64,000 nt of DNA from Eledone cirrhosa (Eukaryota): positions 15,190,001-15,254,000 of the forward strand of contig OZ024757.1 in assembly GCA_964016885.1 (NCBI GenBank). Direction: 5' to 3'. The position numbers and the translations under genes are program-made. Below the pieces are notes generated by a model, which ran no database searches, was not told the origin of the DNA, and saw only the letters and a program-made list of their open reading frames with translations. Below, one piece after another: positions 25,053 to 54,694 of this stretch (position 1 is its first letter; each line of letters starts with the position of its first letter).

Positions 25053-26749
25053 TTAAGCATAAAATCTGGACATGCAGGAAATGAGAGAGTTATGTAATTG
25101 TTATTTTAATTTTTCAAGATAAATGATTTAATTGAAGATAAATAAAATTTATTTGGGAGGGGGTGGGGGTGCACATGCTATTTATAAAAGATTATATTGT
25201 TGAAATTTATGAACTTGAGAAAGAAATATTGTAAATGAAAGCATTATGAGTATTACTGTAAATTTATTTAAACGGATTCAAAGCAGATCTTGAATTTAGT
25301 TGTCATTTGTAAAGTAAGTGACTAAATGAATGATTTGCAAACAACATTCAATTAGAAGTTGTCAAAAGAAGGGAAAACATTCTGATAAAAATATTGTCAT
25401 AAGCTAAAGAGAGAAAAAAGAATTATGAAAATTGACAATTCATAGAAAATATATATATACGAAAAAAGTGAACATTCAATATGATTTGTGTTTTGTGTTA
25501 ATGTATATGTTGAAGTAATTCTGACATAGGAAAATCTCCTATGGATGCCTTCTGCACAAAGATCATATAGTTAAGTGCATGAGCTGACATATTTAATATG
25601 GTGAGCCAAAAATAATTTCTCATCAATTGAAATTACACTCGTAATGAGGAGAAAAATCATTAGAGTTAATGACAATTCATGTCAAGAAAAGTAGAGGGAG
25701 AAAACTCTGAAAGTTAAATAGTGTAATAATTAAATAGGGACATGCAGTATAGCGTGAGTCAGGGCTTAGATAAGTAAAGGAAACTTTGGACATGTTTCAG
25801 TCTTAATAAGCCTCCTCAGTGAAGCATAGTCTAATGTGTACATACCAAAAATTAGACTTACTTCCCAGTGTATGTCCACATTTAATTTTTAATAAATTTG
25901 AATTTCCAATTTTTCCCCTCTTGGCAAGACTTGTCATTAATACTAATTATTTTCCTTCTAATTATGAGAGTAATTCCAGCATAGTTTTGATATTAATTAA
26001 CCCCAGGTAAATTACCAGTGGGTTAATAATATTTTAGTGAATTATAAAAATCATGCAAGATTTGCATAAAGCCAAAGAATAATAAATATGTGAACCGGAA
26101 CTAACTAGCTTCCCTACAGCTTTAGTTAAGGAATGGTGAAAGTGATAAGAAAACAATGAACTAGACCAGTCATGGGCAAACTGTGATCCACGAGACAAAA
26201 GTGGCCCAAATGGCTTTCTGAATGGAGTGCCTAATTTTAAAATTGTCTTGAATTTTTTATCAGCATAGCCAGCCTTATGATGAGCCACATCCTATGAGGC
26301 CGACTACTCAAAAAGGTTTGCCTATGCCTGGACTAGATTCTCTCAGTGACAGAACTACAGCATAAGTGCTTTTATTATAGAATGAACATGGAACGATGGT
26401 TAATGCCTTATAAGTAAATAAACTGACTGATTATTAACTCAATGTCCTATACCACTGGGGAAAGGCCTTCCCTATTCTGTCCGCCAGGGCTGTGGGATGG
26501 CCAGTGTGCGTGCCCCTATTTGCTCACAATAGTGAGAGATAGGGAGAGCTGGTGAGACGGAGGCAGTGACAGTGGGAGTTTGGTCCTTTTGTGTTCAGAC
26601 CTGGTGTATATATGTGTAAAAAACAGAGAATGAGCCTATAAAGCCTTTTCTTTTAAATGGAATTATACTTTACTTGGACTACCTTTTATTTTTTGTATTA
26701 AATTAGCCTGAACCAAGTAAGTTGTGAACAAACAAATATGAAAAAGAAA

Positions 26750-27365: not shown

Positions 27366-29322
27366 CTGGTTTAGAACAGGCACACTGTATCTCTATGTAT
27401 ATCCATTTTATAATAGGTACACTGTATCTCTATTTATATCCAGTTTAGAATAGGTACACAGTATCCCTATTTATACCCAGTTTAGAATAGGTACACTGTA
27501 TCTCAATGTATACCCAATTTAGAATAGGTACACTGTATCTCAATGTATACCCAGTTTAGAATAGGTACACTGTATCCCTATTTATATCCAGTTTAGAATA
27601 GGCACACTGTATCCCTATTTATACCCAATTTAGAATAGGTACACTGTATCTCTATTTATATCCAGTTTAGAATAGGCACACTGTATTCCTATTTATACCC
27701 AGTTTAGAATAGGTACACTGTATCTCAATGTATGCCCAGTTTAGAATAGGTACACTGTATCTCTATTTATATCCAGTTTAGAATAGGTACACTGTATTCC
27801 TATTTATACCCAGTTTAGAATAGGTACACTGTATTCCTATTTATACCCAGTTTAGAATAGGTACACTGTATCTCAATATATACCCAATTTAGAATAGGTA
27901 CACTGTATCTCTATTTATATCCAGTTTAGAATAGGCACACTGTATTCCTATGTATATCCAGTTTATAATAGGTACACTGTAGCTCAATGTATACCCAGTT
28001 TAGAATAGGTACACTGTATTCCTATTTATATCCAGTTTAGAATAGGTACACTGTATCCCTATTTATACCCAGTTTAGAATAGGTACACTGTATCTCAATG
28101 TATACCCAGTTTAGAATAGGTACACTGTATTCCTATTTATACCCAGTTTAGAATAGGTACACTGTATCTCAATGTATACCCAGTTTAGAATAGGTACACT
28201 GTATCCCTATTTATATCCAGTTTAGAATAGGCACACTGTATTCCTATTTATACCCAGTTTAGAATAGGTACACTGTATCTCAATGTATACCCAATTTAGA
28301 ATAGGTACACTGTATCTCTATTTATACCCAGTTTAGAATAGGTACACTGTATCTCTATTTATACCCAGTTTAGAATAGGTACACTGTATCCCTATTTATA
28401 CCCAGTTTAGAATAGGTACACTGTATCCCTATTTATACCCAGTTTAGAATAGGTACACTGTATCTCTATGTATACCCAGTTTAGAATAGGTACACTGTAT
28501 CCCTATTTATACCCAGTTTAGAATAGGTACACTGTATCTCTATTTATATCCAGTTTAGAATAGGTACACTGTATCCCTTTTTATACCCAGTTTAGAATAG
28601 GTACACTGTATCTCAATGTATATCCAGTTTAGAATAGGTACACTGTATCTCAATGTATACCTAGTTTAGAATAGGTACACTGTATCTCTATTTATACCCA
28701 GTTTAGAATAGGTACACTGTATCTCAATGTATACCCAGTTTATAATAGGTACACTGTATCCCTATTTATATCCAGTTTAGAATAGGTACACTGTATCCCT
28801 ATTTATACCCAGTTTAGAATACGTACACTGTATCTCAATGTATACCCAGTTTAGAATAGGTACACTGTATCTCTATTTATATCCAGTTTAGAATAGGTAC
28901 ACTGTATCCCTATTTATACCCAGTTTAGAATAGGTACACTGTATCTCAATGTATACCCAGTTTAGAATAGGTACACTGTATCTCAATGTATACCCAGTTT
29001 AGAATAGGTACACTGTATCTCAATGTATATCCAGTTTAGAATAGGCACACTGTATTCCTATTTATACCCAGTTTAGAATAGGTACACTGTATCTCTATTT
29101 ATATCCAGTTTAGAATAGGTACACTGTATCCCTATTTATACCCAGTTTAGAATAGGTACACTGTATCTCTATTTATATCCAGTTTAGAATAGGTACACTG
29201 TATCTCAATGTATACCCAGTTTAGAATAGGTACACTGTATCCCTATTTATACCCAGTTTAGAATAGGTACACTGTATCTCAATGTATACCCAGTTTAGAA
29301 TAGGTACACTGTATCTCTATGT
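27365..29322. repeat. 37-bp minisatellite, about 53 copies (cccagtttagaataggtacactgtatctctatttata)
   Basis: Period measured at 28327 and 28364; only a few recurring variants. Confidence 0.97.
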
Positions 29323-38682: not shown

Positions 38683-40057
38683 CATTGGCTTGTATTTGAG
38701 TATATACAGTTATAACTCATTTGCAGTTAGAAAGAAAGAATTGAGTTTATTATTTTACATATAAAGAAGTCATTGTAGTGTACTTGATGATGTATTTTAC
38801 TAATCTAACTCTTTTGAGACCAGCACCACCACAACTAGCTCTGGTTCTAATTAGATTAAGATCTTTCAATGTAATTTCATATAAGAACCATGTTAAGTTA
38901 CTATCTTAGTAATGAAATAATGAAAATTTTTGTAAAAATCTCTCAAAATTTTTCATTCATAATTTTAATACAACCTCAGCCAAAACCACCTCTGGTTCTA
39001 CAAAACCAAACCACTCATTTTAAAGGGTTCCTAGTTAAATTAAGCCTGGAGAGGGATGAATTCTCCCAGGTTTAAAATGCTCAAGAAATGCTGTTATTTC
39101 ACTACAGAGACGCTATGGTACCATTAGGAGTTATGGGACTAATGAAAGAACTATTTTAATAAATCCCACAAAATTCTTCATTAACTGTTTTGATACCAGC
39201 ATGGTCAAATTTGGCTCTGGTTCTAAGAAACAAAACCACCCATTTTAAAGGATTCCAATTTAGATTAAAACCTTTAACCACAATTTTATAAATGTAAAGA
39301 AATAATGAATAATTTAGTAAATCCCTCAAAATTCTTGGTTAATTAATTTTGAGTGTATTTCATTAGAAACACACTCACAAAAATGTTAATATTTTACTAA
39401 TTTATAATTTAACTAATTAGATAAGGTGTTGTAGTTTGCTTGAAGCTTTGTGTAAAGTGTAGAAAATAGTGTTTTATTTGAAGGTTACCATATTTTTAAC
39501 ATTTACCATCCAATTCAGATCGTAGTAGCCTTCAAACAAAACACTATTTTTACTAAAGTTAATAAGAAGTGAGATATGTAATAAAAGACTGATAAGTTTT
39601 TAAAAGCTGGTACAATGTAGAAATATATAAAGGGCAAATGATGACAAATAAAACAAAACAAGGTAATGTTTTACCCAATATATTTTAACATGATATTTCA
39701 AGGCTTTTACCCTCTTTTCAAATGTGAAGCAAAAATGGTTCAAAACAAAAACATTGATTATTTGTTTTTGTTTTGAGCTATTTTATATTTGAAAAGAGGG
39801 TTAGAGCCCCAAAATATCGTACTTTGTTTTGTTTTATTTGTCATCCATTGCCCTTATATATTTCTATCATATTGTACTGTCTTTTTGAAACTTATTAGTC
39901 CTTTATTACTATTTTCACTAATTGAAGATATAACTAAGTCATAGTTAGAAAGAAAGAATTTTGATAATTAAATGAAAAAATATTTGATGAATAGATGCTG
40001 AAAAATAAATATGTTAGTAAGAAAAAAAGAAGGAAAAGTTGAATACGAGTTACTTAC

Positions 40058-40370
40058 CTCCCCTGTGTTTCCTGTGTCTTTCATGTTCTGCTATAGAGTG
40101 TGCTTGATCAACTATATTTGAAACAGCAGATGCGAACCCCACGTCTAATCCTCTACGTGGAGACACAGAACGTCGATGCATACTTGGTGACGCCATTGGA
40201 GAACCAAGAGGACTCTGAGGAGGCAATGGAGAACGAGGTGATACCGGTGAAAGAGGCACTGTATGTGTAAAAAGTAACCCTTTACTAGAACCCGTTCCAG
40301 GTCTGGCAGCAGGAAAATGGGCTGCGTGTTCGGGCCTCAGTCCCCATGAAAAGTCCTGCTTCTCAGAGGG
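40058..40370 (-). CDS. cac: Cav2 alpha-1 internal exon (PSEKQDFSWGLRPEH...DVGFASAVSNIVDQAHSIAEHERHRKHRG)
   Basis: Acceptor gctatttcag|CCC (phase 0), open frame over 313 nt, donor G|GTAAGT (phase 1) matching the terminal exon. Confidence 0.92.
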
Positions 40371-40954
40371 CTGAAATAGCGTAGTATTGGAGAGAATTAA
40401 TGTAAGATTTTAATCATTAAAATTTCATAGCAAAAGTTGCCTGACATCCAATAGCACCTTTATGAATTTTTCCGCATCTCACCATCTCTCTCCTGTCCCA
40501 AAGCTTAGGATTCCCATATTAAATTCTATGTGTATGTAACTTGTACATATGAAAACATTTAAGATGTTATATTATACAGACCAAAATGGTTCTTTTAAAA
40601 TATATAAGAAGAATTTCAAAAATTTGGAGCACTTGCACTTGTTTTCTGCAAGGTTATTTGATATAAATGGGGGAAGGTTTTATAAAATGGAAAAATGAAT
40701 GAGAATAATTTGATATAAAAAGGAGGGAAGGGGTAGAGGAAGCTAAGCATGAATAACAGGAGGATGACAGCAGAAAGGCATAAAGGTTTGGATAGAAAAG
40801 CATTAGCAGGTAGTCAATATATAAACATTCAATGTAAGCCACAGCAAATTTAAGGTTATAGAATGCATATACACACAAAATTCATACATATAGATATATG
40901 AAAAAAAAAACAAACAAAAAAAATCAGTACATGTGTATGTGTGTATGAATATAT

Positions 40955-46147: not shown

Positions 46148-48187
46148 TTAAACGTTTTCAGTCCATCCCAGCCCAAACACTTATAGGCAGATAAAATGGT
46201 CAGCAGCCACTTTTCTCTAATGTCCCTGAGAACATTTTACTCGATTTTCTAATGCTATTATCCTTTATAGTGATTCTGTGTTAGGATTTCAAATTTAAAC
46301 CTTCTCTTAATGTTCCAGACATAAACTTAAAAATAACGAGAAAGTTACCATATATACTCGAATATAAGACACATCTGAAATTTTATATATGAGAAAGGGG
46401 CAAAAATCCAAACCCCTTTTATAGGATAAGGCAGCTAATCAACCCATTATGTTTAGATGGCAAATATAATCTAACCATTTTACCATCGATTTTTTTGGTT
46501 ACATATTTCTCAGCCTATATTTGAGTTATTTTACTAAATATAATTTTGCATCATTTACTAAATATAATTTTGTATCATTTTCAAAATTTATTGAAAATCA
46601 AAGGTGCATATTTCATAAAAAATATGGTAACAAAAGGGTTAATTATGACAGCTGAAGTTTAGTAAAACAAATGTGGAAATATATATATGGAAAACGTTTT
46701 TACACATTCAGCAATCTGGTCACAGAACCGTATTTCCTGGCATCGAATACAGTCTAATGTTGTGGATCCACCCATGATTGAATTAAGTCCATTCAAAACC
46801 CTAAGCCCCTAAAAGATTATTGCAACCCCCTCCCGCCACCACACCCATATATAAAAATCTACAAAGAAAGCTTTTTTGTGGGGTGGGAATAACAAATTTA
46901 ATTTGAATAAAATAGTGCCCCTCTTTCATCAATGCCTTAGATATGCATATATTTTACTTAATTATTAATACAGCCATTGACATATCTCAGGCCTGTCATC
47001 AAGGGAGCCACTATGCCCCCAACTTTTCAATAGCCCACTTTCAGATTTAGAAAAATTTAAGGGGTATGCTTATTCTGAAACCCTGCCTTAGAATTATTAC
47101 GAATTAGAGTGTTCACCTGGAATGTTCTAATGCTCTCACCCCCAAGCACCAAAACATATGGTGAGGGTCTGACACACCTCTAATTTTAGTTGCAACATTT
47201 TGAAAAAAAAAAAATGTTTAACATAATAACTAATGTAACCTTTGACCTCTAAAATAGATGGTAAAAATGTCCAGACATTTACTTTTAGGAGGAAAAAACC
47301 CAGCGGTCTTCCACCCCATGAAATACGATAATTGTTGTTTTCGTTTTCTTTTTCTTGACAAACTATTTTTAGATAAATTTTACAGTTTGTGATATCTTAG
47401 AAAATATATATAATATATAATCTTTGACACGTGGATTATCTGGGCACCTTCTTTGTGATCAGGCAAGCTTTTATAGATAATTAAAGATGATGAGTACTTC
47501 TCAATAAGCAGGAACATGCAGTGAGGTGACGGATAGCAATAAACATTGAAGAGAAGAGAACTGACAGGTAAGTTAGGTGGAAGTGAAACAAGAATATACC
47601 AGGGAAGGGGGAGGGAGTGTCATTCAGTGATGCAAGACACAGTGTTTTCTTCTTCAGTTAGAAAAAACATTTTTTTTCGTTTTTTTTTAGCATTTTTATC
47701 AGGGATAGCAGCATAGATTTTTCTGGTCAAGTGTTAATTAGCACAATGTTTATTAGCATTGGTAATTAGCAGCTTTTAGTAAACATAACTGACCATAGTA
47801 AGAGGTTCTACAAGAAGTGTAGCCAAAAGACCCATTTAGCCAACCACTTGATCCATCTCTTCATCCACTCGAAGGAAAATAGAGGGAATAAGTAGAAATG
47901 TAATAGTAATAATAACAACAATAATAATGATAATAATAATATTAATAGTAATAATAATAAAATGCATTTCCAGCACAACAAGCTACCACAGAGACAATAC
48001 AGCTGGAGTACATACAGGGGATTGCTTACAGGGGGTGAAGGGAAGAGAAGGGGAGGGGAGGAGTAAAAATACCAACTGACAAGTGAAAGGCTGGTAGGAA
48101 AGAAGAGTGGGTGCAAAACACAGTTTTGATGAAGTTGGTTTTTAGACAGCTCACGAATAGATAGAGAGCCCTTTTCCAAATGCTTAC

Positions 48188-48313
48188 TTCATCTTTGTTG
48201 AGTTTAGTCATGGAAGCTGTGATTTGATTGGCTGCTATGGAGAGAAGGGCATTATCGATACTGGCCTCACTTCCAATTGAGGTTCGTCGTCCAACATCCT
48301 TCATTTCAATACT
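48188..48313 (-). CDS. cac: Cav2 alpha-1 exon, 42 aa (SIEMKDVGRRTSIGSEASIDNALLSIAANQITASMTKLNKDE), probably a cassette
   Basis: Acceptor ccttttgccttgtag|AGT and donor GAA|GTAAGC; phase 0-0, 126 nt. SIEMKDVG...ASMTKL resembles vertebrate Cav2.1 SVEMREMG...AASMPRL (recalled, not aligned). Confidence 0.8.
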
Positions 48314-48799
48314 CTACAAGGCAAAAGGTAGGACATGAAAAAGGGTTCTCTTGACTCCAAAAAAGGTTCTCTTGAACCAAAATCACACTAAACTTACTTG
48401 TAAGACCCTTAACTCTCTCTTTCTCTCTCTTTCTATATATATATATATATCTCACTCATTCTCTCTTTCTCTTACACACACACACACATTCACAACCTCT
48501 CTTTTTATCTCATTCCTGTCCTTAGTCTCTTATCTACTGTGGAAACGCAAGTTGTAAAATGAGAATTTTATTTATGCTTTTTATTATCGAAGTCAACGTA
48601 AATATTGATTTTGGGACGTTTTCTTCTTTTCTTTTTTTAAAAAGGGATACGCATAAAAAATAGATAAAATTGGATTAAATGCTCTGAAATAGCGATATAT
48701 ATGTGAAGATAGACATAGAATATTCAAACCAGTTCCTGTACACAGCTAAGTATTCTATAAGTCTCTAGCTGTGTCATTCTCGATAAAAGCACTGGATAT

Positions 48800-48842
48800 G
48801 TAATCCTGAAGATTTCTAATAAGAATGAAACGCGTAGGTTAC
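48800..48842 (+). ncRNA. Type I hammerhead ribozyme motif with a palindromic minimal stem III
   Basis: GTAATC-CTGAAGA-T-TTC-TAATAA-GAA-T-GAAAC-GC-GTA-GGTTAC. It has the CUGANGA and GAAA cores, a GUA cleavage triplet and stem I GUAAUC/GGUUAC, extended by a perfect 16-bp stem (48776-48791/48849-48864). Confidence 0.8.
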
Positions 48843-49170
48843 TTCCCTTGCTTTTATCGAGAATCTAATTGTAATACGTGACGTATTCTATTCTATAGCG
48901 ATTAGGTCTTCAAAATGTTTATTATAAACATACAGAATATTTTCGAATATTCTATGTCTATATAGATAAAATATTTAAATAATAAAATATTTTAGGGGTT
49001 CTTTAATAGAATCAAAACAAAGAGAAAAAGAACAACAGACATGAAACATAAATTTTAAAACTAGTCTTCTAAATTCGACCACAGTAGATAGAACTAAAGT
49101 TTGCATTCATAAAACAAAAACTAAATTAAATATATTAAAATATTCTGTTGAAAAATGTTAAGGCTTTATG

Positions 49171-53453: not shown

Positions 53454-53891
53454 GAATTCTACTGAAAATCAAAACTATGGTACCATGGTGCTATACTAGA
53501 CGTGCATACTATCACTATGTTGTAAAAAATCTCTGATAATCTAATTTTGATACAATTCAGAGTATTTATAATGCTTACATCAACAACTTGCAGTGTGTTT
53601 TACTTCAAACTTAAAAGGTTGGAGGTTGAGGGGAGGTGTTTACAAAAACAGAAATAGGAAGGAAGAAAAAAAAAAACCATTTTCACCAGTGTAAGTCTAT
53701 TAACCACCACCAGAATAATATATTATAAAGAGAGAAAAACCAACAAAATTGAAAGAAATTTTAGAATCCAACTGCCGCTGTTAGTTTATCCAAAGATTGC
53801 CAAATTCATGCAAGAAACTGCAAGATTTTGTGGCCTTTTTATTGTAGAGGGAAAGCACATAGTACTTATTTTCTTTTTTTAAATTTGCTAC

Positions 53892-53993
53892 CTTGTACTT
53901 TAGGTTTTCATACAACTGATTCTCATCAACACCAGAGAAAGAGGGGTTAACATAGGCACCTCTTTGTTGGGTTTCGTTGAAATTTGCTTGATT
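53892..53993 (-). CDS. cac: Candidate Cav2 cassette exon, 34 aa ([34 protein letters not shown])
   Basis: T-rich tract followed by ggatcag|AAT; open phase 0-0 frame of 102 nt in unique sequence. The donor AAG|GTAGCA is weak. Confidence 0.5.
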
Positions 53994-54694
53994 CTGATCC
54001 AATAAAAAATAACAAAAACAAATAAAATAAAAACTGAACAAATTTGAAATATATATATACATATATATGTATGTGTACATACATATATATGTATGTATAT
54101 ATATTTATATGTATATATATAGATATATGTATGTATACATATATATATGTATGTATATATACATATATATATATGTATACATATATATATGTATGTATAT
54201 ATACATATATATATGTATGTATATATACATATATATATACATATATATATGTATATATGTATATATATAGATATATATATATGTATATGTATGTATACAT
54301 ATATATATATGTATACATATATATATGTATATATACATATATATGTATGTATACATATATATATATGTATGTATACATATATATGTATGTATACAATTAT
54401 ATGTATGTATACAATTATATGTATGTATACATACATATGTATGTATATATACATACATATATATGTATGTATATATACATACATATGTATGTATACATAC
54501 ATATAATTGTATACATACCTATAATTGTATACATATATATATATGTATACATATATATATATATGTTTGTATACATATATATATATGTTTGTATACATAT
54601 ATATATATGTATCCATATATATATGTATGTATACATATATATGTATGTATACATACATAAATGTTTGTATTCATAAATGTATGTATACATACAT

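What the first reader, a model, noticed from the sequence alone, without database searches (positions are those of the whole stretch)
48709..48961. Hammerhead ribozyme inside a 253-nt multi-branched RNA fold in a Cav2 intron (retrozyme- or Penelope-pLTR-like)
Seen in sequence (+ strand): (1) an outer perfect 17-bp stem, atagacatagaatattc 48709-48725 / gaatattctatgtctat 48945-48961; (2) a 9-bp hairpin, acacagcta/tagctgtgt, 48740-48774; (3) a perfect 16-bp stem, attctcgataaaagca 48776-48791 / tgcttttatcgagaat 48849-48864, continuing through an internal loop into hammerhead stem I (GTAATC/GGTTAC); (4) the core CTGAAGA (48806-48812), stem II TTC/GAA with loop TAATAA, then GAAAC-GC-GTA with predicted cleavage after 48836; (5) two more hairpins, aatacg/cgtatt 48873-48887 and atgttta/taaacat 48915-48931. 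Established: type I hammerheads with a palindromic ACGCGU stem III occur in Penelope-like element pLTRs and in metazoan non-LTR retrozymes, which produce small circRNAs, and they usually cleave as dimers. Inference: this is a monomer of a possibly undescribed cephalopod retrozyme/PLE family. It lies antisense to the channel, about 400 nt upstream of the 48313 splice acceptor. The stems also form on the sense strand, so it could affect splicing or ADAR editing.
Basis: partly seen in the sequence, partly recalled or inferred. Interest (0 to 1): 0.85.

Follow-up and report, generated by a model that had tools for sequence, protein, structure and literature searches.

The report
Octopus hammerhead retrozyme in head-to-head arrays
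This is a truncated copy of a very young 310-base hammerhead-ribozyme repeat that has thousands of copies in an octopus genome, and its head-to-head insertions, which stop at one of each of two fixed sites, suggest that a Penelope-type enzyme likely copies one RNA circle twice, once onto each strand of the cut DNA.

Summary
The hammerhead motif is real and homologues keep its stems. The "253-nt fold" is not an RNA unit.

- **Window copy:** a 291-bp insertion with an 11-bp target duplication: an inverted 59-nt arm plus a 239-nt arm of a 310-nt monomer. The 17-bp outer stem is that inversion. It is sub-monomeric and antisense to Cav2; nothing supports a channel role.
- **Family:** non-coding; 17,128 ribozyme cores, at least 1,400 insertions, mostly in (TA)n.
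- **Anatomy:** two 5'-truncated tandem arrays head-to-head, up to about 15 kb. In 79 of 79 resolved inverted loci one arm ends at site A and the other at site B, about 35 nt further on: the Penelope "tail".
- **Template:** both arms share a haplotype in 42 of 51 loci (7% across loci); 5' ends ignore the cleavage site.

Best model (inferred): a Penelope-like RT/endonuclease dimer primes both DNA strands on one RNA circle. Cleavage, circular RNA and the autonomous partner are untested or not found. The class (non-LTR retrozymes) is known; I found no paper describing this family or rule. The scan noted Penelope-type tandem insertions in another genome (e1-7881736).

The parts
48660..48670 (+). 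Left copy of the 11-bp target-site duplication (its last bases overlap the element's site-B end by microhomology)
48671..48725 (-). Inverted arm: monomer positions 109 to about 165, 3' end at site B (the 'tail' end), pointing left
   Evidence: exact reverse complement of a unit in L092
48723..48961 (+). Main arm: monomer positions 197-310 then 1-125, 3' end at site A, pointing right; joined to the inverted arm through about 3 nt of microhomology
   Evidence: 100% to many copies, 1 mismatch to an L093 unit
48800..48842 (+). Type I minimal hammerhead: stem I 48800-48805/48837-48842, core 48806-48812, stem II 48813-48826 (U.U at its base), GAAA 48827-48830, 2-bp stem III in a palindrome (48830-48835), predicted cleavage after 48836
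   Evidence: cleavage itself untested
48776..48864 (+). 16-bp stem carrying the ribozyme; in families B and G the sequence differs and a long stem is predicted in B
48915..48953 (+). Two hairpins just 5' of site A, kept with compensatory changes in families B and G; candidate RT-recognition domain (inferred)
48962..48972 (+). Right copy of the target-site duplication
48188..48313 (-). Cav2 C-terminal coding exon downstream (in gene direction) of the insertion; context only

Best explanation
The window holds a truncated, inverted insertion of a non-coding 310-nt hammerhead repeat that occurs in thousands of copies in this octopus genome and is likely spread by a Penelope-like retrotransposon enzyme copying the repeat's RNA, probably as a circle. 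SHOWN: monomer, copy number, (TA)n targets, head-to-head arms, one site-A plus one site-B end, shared haplotype in both arms, random 5' ends. INFERRED, step by step: (1) tandem arrays are transcribed; neighbouring ribozymes pair through the stem III palindrome, cleave slowly and give monomers that are ligated into circles; (2) a dimeric Penelope-like RT/GIY-YIG protein binds one RNA and nicks both strands of an AT-rich target about 10 bp apart; (3) each 3' end primes reverse transcription, one at site A (about position 130) and the other at site B (about 165), helped by short UA matches to the target; (4) both enzymes run round the template a variable number of times and sometimes jump to another RNA; (5) the two cDNAs are joined at their far ends by microhomology, giving a head-to-head array with the tail on one end only. 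The window copy is such an event in which both enzymes stopped early; it is predicted to be a dead end with no role in Cav2. Confidence: about 0.9 for 'retrozyme moved by a Penelope-like enzyme', about 0.75 for two separate primings, about 0.6 for a circular template.
For: Copy number: 17,128 exact matches to the ribozyme-core pattern, control 0; 1,429 site-A and 1,152 site-B ends running into (TA)n, control 0. Inversion: 24 of the first 31 loci on contig C1. A+B rule: 79 of 79 resolved inverted loci, comprising 24 unselected, 23 chosen for lacking an exact partner end, 18 chosen as pairs and 14 from the query-biased first search. Sister families B and G show the same two ends (read by eye). 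Template: same majority haplotype in both arms in 42 of 51 loci versus 184 of 2,550 cross-locus pairs; 28 haplotypes among the 51; locus-private variants sit in every unit of both arms. Within-array difference is 4.6e-4 per base. The 168 5' ends are spread evenly round the monomer (chi-square p 0.25) and arms cross the cleavage site freely. Separate primings: either arm can be longer (A 45, B 34); 1 shared minority variant among 60 in 33 loci; haplotype switches confined to one arm in L175 and L211; arms from a different element in L012, L105, L110. Structure kept: 10 of 36 RNAalifold pairs show two-sided changes among 8 copies of 3 families; stem II base A-U/G-C swap inside family G. Literature: a Penelope-like protein cuts and extends both strands, starts at two internal sites that bracket the tail and is predicted to be a dimer (PMC11167929); inverted 5'-truncated copy, 30-40 bp tail on one end and (TA)n targets are PLE features (PMC8557442 and its preprint; PMC3846280).
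Against: Self-cleavage is untested and the ribozyme looks weak: 2-bp stem III, and U.U in place of G10.1-C11.1 in the commonest variants. Minimal PLE hammerheads cleave poorly in vitro (PMC4209133), and 8 of 9 Xenopus retrozyme dimers did not cleave. In vitro, ribozyme-dead RNA inserts equally well and the two start sites were not strand-specific (PMC11167929). Several long arrays carry recurring variant blocks (L167, L172/173, L169, L092, L109), which points to later local duplication or multimeric templates. Nine of 51 loci differ between arms (at least one is an alignment artefact), and L092 has one variant mirrored in both innermost units. L012 joins two A-type ends. No autonomous element with a homologous terminal repeat was found. 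The covariation rests on only three related families.
Confidence: 0.62

Rival explanations
1. The same two-site priming by a Penelope-like enzyme, but on long uncleaved linear transcripts of existing arrays; the hammerhead is dispensable and no circle is involved.
For: Ribozyme-dead RNA inserts normally in vitro (PMC11167929). The ribozyme looks weak. Recurring variant blocks occur in some arrays. Source arrays up to about 15 kb exist.
Against: Many insertions have a private haplotype fixed in every unit of both arms (28 haplotypes in 51 loci), which needs a single-unit bottleneck. The ribozyme core and stems are kept across three diverged families.
Confidence: 0.2
2. One priming only: the second arm is a fold-back copy of the first cDNA, or arises by self-priming on an antisense template as proposed for Adineta Penelopes, and endonuclease cutting sets the tail end.
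For: It explains shared haplotypes without two enzymes. It was proposed in PMC3846280 and, for the tail, in the Craig preprint. One mirrored variant in L092.
Against: L175 and L211 carry a haplotype switch in one arm that the other arm does not mirror. Either arm may be longer (45 vs 34). Arms from other elements occur (L012, L105, L110). Only 1 of 60 minority variants is shared, although most may postdate insertion.
Confidence: 0.1
3. Short inverted insertions came first and the arrays grew afterwards in place by unequal crossover, as ordinary satellites do (model favoured in the 2026 preprint).
For: Recurring multi-unit variant blocks in the longest arrays; the preprint's discussion.
Against: Expansion needs more than one unit to start. 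Both arms are multimeric and near-invariant in many dispersed loci (L170, L174, L176, L186 and others have no minority variants). Array lengths run continuously from under one unit to dozens.
Confidence: 0.06
4. The window copy is a functional 253-nt RNA structure that modulates Cav2 splicing or editing.
For: It lies 357 nt from a splice acceptor, and the pre-mRNA strand folds with a long closing stem (-87.6 kcal/mol).
Against: It is nearly identical to dispersed copies and one of at least 1,400 insertions. The ribozyme is on the strand opposite to Cav2. The closing stem is a by-product of the inversion.
Confidence: 0.02

Closest known systems
Metazoan non-LTR retrozymes (Cervera and de la Pena 2020, PMC7229834; Li, Clavereau and Pollet 2026, bioRxiv 10.64898/2026.07.22.740005)
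   Same: Non-coding tandem monomer of about 300 nt, low GC (35%), one type I hammerhead per unit, target duplication longer than 4 bp, dispersed arrays, co-occurrence with PLEs, proposed circular intermediate.
   Different: In the parts I read they are described as head-to-tail tandems, with no inverted double arrays, fixed start sites or tail; the word 'inverted' does not occur in the 2020 main text. Octopus is not mentioned there and no mollusc was sampled in 2026. Expression and cleavage are shown for those families and untested here.
EN+ Penelope-like elements: pLTR, inverted copy and tail (Craig et al. 2021, PMC8557442; Arkhipova et al. 2013, PMC3846280; Frangieh et al. 2024, PMC11167929)
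   Same: Inverted 5'-truncated copy, 30-40 nt tail on one end only, (TA)n targets, duplication of about 10 bp, minimal hammerhead upstream of two internal start sites.
   Different: No RT or GIY-YIG frame; the whole element is a 310-nt repeat; both arms are multimers; no autonomous PLE with this terminal sequence was found.
Minimal PLE hammerheads (Cervera and de la Pena 2014, PMC4209133)
   Same: Intact catalytic core, short palindromic stem III suited to dimer cleavage.
   Different: The 'highly conserved' G10.1-C11.1 pair is U.U in the commonest variants of families A and B, A-U in another A variant, and A-U or G-C in family G.

Membership tests
Non-LTR retrozyme | Tandem monomer of about 150-450 bp, low GC | tested here: met
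   310 nt, 35% GC
Non-LTR retrozyme | Type I hammerhead in each unit | tested here: met
   Core and stems in each unit, kept across families A, B, G. Rfam only weak: HH9, E 0.39.
Non-LTR retrozyme | No protein coding; target duplication longer than 4 bp | tested here: met
   Longest ATG frame 26-30 aa; no frame of 200 aa or more inside 20 long loci; 11-bp duplication in the window; elsewhere hidden in (TA)n
Non-LTR retrozyme | Self-cleavage of monomer or dimer RNA | not testable with these tools
   Needs in vitro transcription
Non-LTR retrozyme | Expressed as linear and circular monomer RNA | not testable with these tools
   No RNA run available to lay
PLE-type insertion | Inverted 5'-truncated copy with a 30-40 nt tail on one end only | tested here: met
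   79 of 79 resolved inverted loci; sites about 35 nt apart
PLE-type insertion | (TA)n or AT-rich target preference | tested here: met
Autonomous PLE | RT plus GIY-YIG frame between pLTRs | tested here: not met
   No frame in the arrays
Derivative of a specific PLE pLTR | Sequence homology to the terminal repeat of an autonomous PLE | tested here: inconclusive
   BLASTN against 50 GIY-YIG loci hit only family B copies; no consistent PLE neighbour in 195 locus records; only a small part of the genome's PLEs was sampled
Canonical hammerhead | G10.1-C11.1 pair and a stem III stable as a monomer | tested here: not met
   U.U and a 2-bp stem III in the window variant; it fits the minimal, dimer-type form

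The most novel reading that the evidence does not exclude
Penelope-like enzymes work as dimers that start two cDNAs on one RNA, at two fixed sites, one on each strand of the cut target. On a ribozyme-made RNA circle this writes giant head-to-head palindromic arrays in one step. The inverted pLTR, the one-sided tail and retrozyme tandem arrays would then be a single mechanism, and this octopus genome records more than a thousand fresh examples, including template jumps between circles and onto Hydra-clade PLE RNA.
Probability: 0.5. Interest if true: 0.75.

Novelty: new variant of a known kind. Interest (0 to 1): 0.55.

Why it matters
How Penelope-like elements make their inverted repeats and tail, and whether retrozyme circles are really their templates, are stated as open in the papers read. 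This family supplies many very young insertions with countable rules: one A plus one B end, a shared haplotype, and random 5' ends. These link retrozymes to PLE enzymology by mechanism rather than by co-occurrence, and they predict in vitro outcomes with a 310-nt RNA. At about 5 Mb (17,128 x 310 nt, about 0.18% of the genome) of long near-perfect inverted arrays, the family would also be a possible source of double-stranded RNA and DNA hairpins (inference). The Cav2 copy itself is ordinary.

Tried and rejected
- **Rfam:** nothing at gathering score; no tRNA in 4 loci.
- **RNA:** no RNA holder listed. Three runs of unrecorded kind each hold the monomer as one 340-nt contig, as any closed 310-nt repeat would assemble; this cannot tell circular RNA from tandem DNA and is not used as evidence.
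- **Autonomous partner:** long A-B spans first taken for the partner are pure arrays. Family B next to a Neptune-like PLE in L062 is an independent insertion. A Neptune-like family (copies about 97% alike) and a Hydra-like family (96-99%) have their own hammerhead-like motifs and two-end patterns but no homology to family A.
- **Hydra lead:** the three junctions to protein-coding PLE sequence (L002, L012, L105) are all Hydra-like by motif (CxCX5C, CxxC, CxH; no informative Pfam match; no tree built). Hydra-like neighbours are common anyway, L012 breaks the A+B pattern, and 0 of 40 further loci were chimeric, so this is only a lead.
- **Window repeat scan:** swamped by microsatellites.
- **Assembly fold-back artefact:** rejected because the arms have different fixed ends, unrelated 5' points and, in the window, a target duplication.
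- **Literature:** eight searches found no description of this family or of the A+B and shared-haplotype rule. Repbase and Dfam were not searchable, and the supplement of PMC7229834 and the bioRxiv supplements were not seen and may list octopus motifs.

Full report
OBSERVATION. The stretch folds far better than shuffles (z -8.7; z -5.4 without the inverted arm). Rfam has no gathering-level match, and the best weak match is Hammerhead_HH9, aligned over the core (E 0.39). The gene is Cav2 on the minus strand: window exons match an Octopus vulgaris type A calcium channel, and the element sits in the intron upstream of the 48313 acceptor.

WHAT THE WINDOW COPY IS. A search of the own genome gave 330 matches among 40 scored of 272 candidate places, the top ones 94-100% identical and in tandem at a 310-bp period. 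Numbering the monomer from the base after the predicted cut, the window holds positions 109-165 on the minus strand (48669-48725, exact) joined to positions 197-310 and 1-125 on the plus strand (48723-48961). An 11-bp duplication flanks it (48660-48670, 48962-48972). The copy has one ribozyme, lacks 71 nt of the monomer on its main strand and is antisense to Cav2.

THE FAMILY. The window's exact 43-nt ribozyme variant occurs 943 times and a pattern covering the common variants 17,128 times. Ends running into (TA)n number 1,429 at site A and 1,152 at site B; all controls were 0. The unit is 35% GC with no frame over 30 aa. Two older sister families, B and G (top-scoring copies 92-96% alike; 2,670 and 1,734 candidates), align over the whole monomer. 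In the 8 aligned copies the core is kept with A, U or G at the free seventh position (one copy has GGAA for GAAA). Stem I, II and III sequences differ between families but still pair. RNAalifold finds two-sided changes in 10 of 36 pairs, including stem II and the two hairpins before site A; it did not recover stem I on this alignment. My variant counts required the core, so they say nothing about core decay. The base of stem II is U.U in the commonest A and B variants, unlike the G10.1-C11.1 pair called highly conserved in PMC4209133 (parts 1-2 of 4 read), so cleavage is probably slow and dimer-dependent (inference).

INSERTION ANATOMY. Of the first 31 loci on contig C1, 24 are two arrays head-to-head with 3' ends pointing outward and 7 are single-armed. 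One arm ends at about position 125-139 (site A) and the other at about 158-172 (site B). To test this against selection I fetched 40 ends that lacked an exact partner in the pattern lists. Of these, 23 were A+B, 2 had a very short apparent second arm, 7 were single-armed in microsatellite, 6 ran off the fetched stretch and 2 hit N gaps; none was A+A or B+B. Over all sets 79 of 79 resolved inverted loci are A+B (18 were chosen as pairs and 14 came from the query-biased first search; the class limits were 100-141 and 150-175). Arrays reach about 15 kb. The 168 5' ends are uniform round the monomer (p 0.25), and junctions mostly show 1-5 nt of overlap or short gaps.

TEMPLATE. In 42 of 51 loci with both arms of at least 320 nt the arms share the same majority haplotype, against 184 of 2,550 pairs across loci; 14 of the 21 loci with a unique haplotype have it in both arms. 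Private variants, such as a 2-nt deletion in L169 or a distinctive five-change set in L180, are in every unit of both arms. Units within a locus differ at 4.6e-4 per base. This points to one monomer sequence templating both arms, simplest as a circle. Against this: L167, L172/173, L169, L092 and L109 have recurring variant blocks, so local duplication or multimeric templates contribute.

TWO PRIMINGS OR FOLD-BACK. Either arm may be longer (45 vs 34). One of 60 minority variants in 33 loci is shared between arms, which is weak evidence because many may postdate insertion. L175 and L211 switch haplotype within one arm in a way the other arm does not mirror. Of 6 single-armed loci with non-microsatellite 5' flanks, L012 and L105 abut inverted coding fragments of Hydra-like PLEs, L110 abuts an inverted arm of another hammerhead repeat, L108 abuts another repeat family, and 2 abut other DNA. 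L002 runs from family A into a Hydra-like 3' end on the same strand. Deletion between independent insertions could also give these.

PARTNER. The genome is rich in GIY-YIG elements (10,596 candidates, 150 scored), of Neptune-, Poseidon- and Hydra-like types by motif. None sampled carries a family A/B/G terminal repeat. The partner is not identified; Hydra-like is a weak lead.

COMPARISON. Retrozymes as tandem, hammerhead-bearing, circle-forming non-autonomous elements probably moved by PLEs are described in PMC7229834 (passages and part 4 of 6; supplement unreadable) and in bioRxiv 10.64898/2026.07.22.740005 (parts 1-3 of 5). The inverted copy, one-sided tail and (TA)n preference are in PMC8557442 and its preprint (passages, outline, section 11) and PMC3846280 (passages), which proposes self-priming. 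PMC11167929 (parts 1-2 of 4) shows two internal start sites, extension of both strands and a predicted dimer, but also no strand difference in start site and no need for cleavage. PMC10886601 was irrelevant (passages). Eight searches showed no description of this family or of the A+B and shared-haplotype rule; repeat databases were not available. A search of earlier scan findings by sequence gave nothing; by words it gave one ribozyme-free tandem element with Penelope-type ends in another genome.

VERDICT. A real but ordinary dead-end copy in the Cav2 intron, belonging to an apparently undescribed, very young octopus retrozyme family whose insertion anatomy gives a clear, testable model for Penelope-type retrotransposition. 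Cleavage, expression, circularity and the partner enzyme remain unshown.

Noticed in passing
L062:2440-2865, L134-L158 (family B); L225, L246-L275 (family G): Two older sister retrozyme families with the same two ends and longer, 4-bp stem III variants; successive waves of one lineage.
   Followed up: yes
L111, L116, L117 (e.g. L116:5900-6100): Neptune-like PLE family with a 938-codon open frame, inverted copies, two fixed ends and a hammerhead-like motif carrying the U3-A8 core variant.
   Followed up: partly
L159, L226-L245: Abundant Hydra-like PLE family (open frames up to about 810 codons, copies 96-99% alike) with a type I hammerhead in its 3' repeat and two ends about 87 nt apart, longer than the usual 30-40 nt tail.
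   Followed up: partly
L113, L116, L117, L127 (family C); L110 flank (family E); L121:7400-9000; L119/L120; L131; L071/L123: Several further unrelated hammerhead repeat families, many at (TA)n; family C also has U.U at the base of stem II.
   Followed up: no
L160 and L161: Two copies of a second Hydra-like element are 5'-truncated within 2 nt of the same point, and both lie beside family A insertions.
   Followed up: partly
window 27369-29320: 37-bp minisatellite, 52.8 copies, 91% matches, in a Cav2 intron.
   Followed up: no
window 25789-25819 (-): Second loose hammerhead-pattern match without convincing stems; probably chance.
   Followed up: partly
window 53877-53996 and 40053-40373: Cav2 C-terminus has an optional exon and alternative acceptors among the protein isoforms mapped; exon 48188-48313 also reads on through its donor to a stop at 48026.
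   Followed up: no
79 inverted loci: Lengths of the two arms correlate (Spearman 0.43), possibly from pooling differently chosen sets.
   Followed up: no
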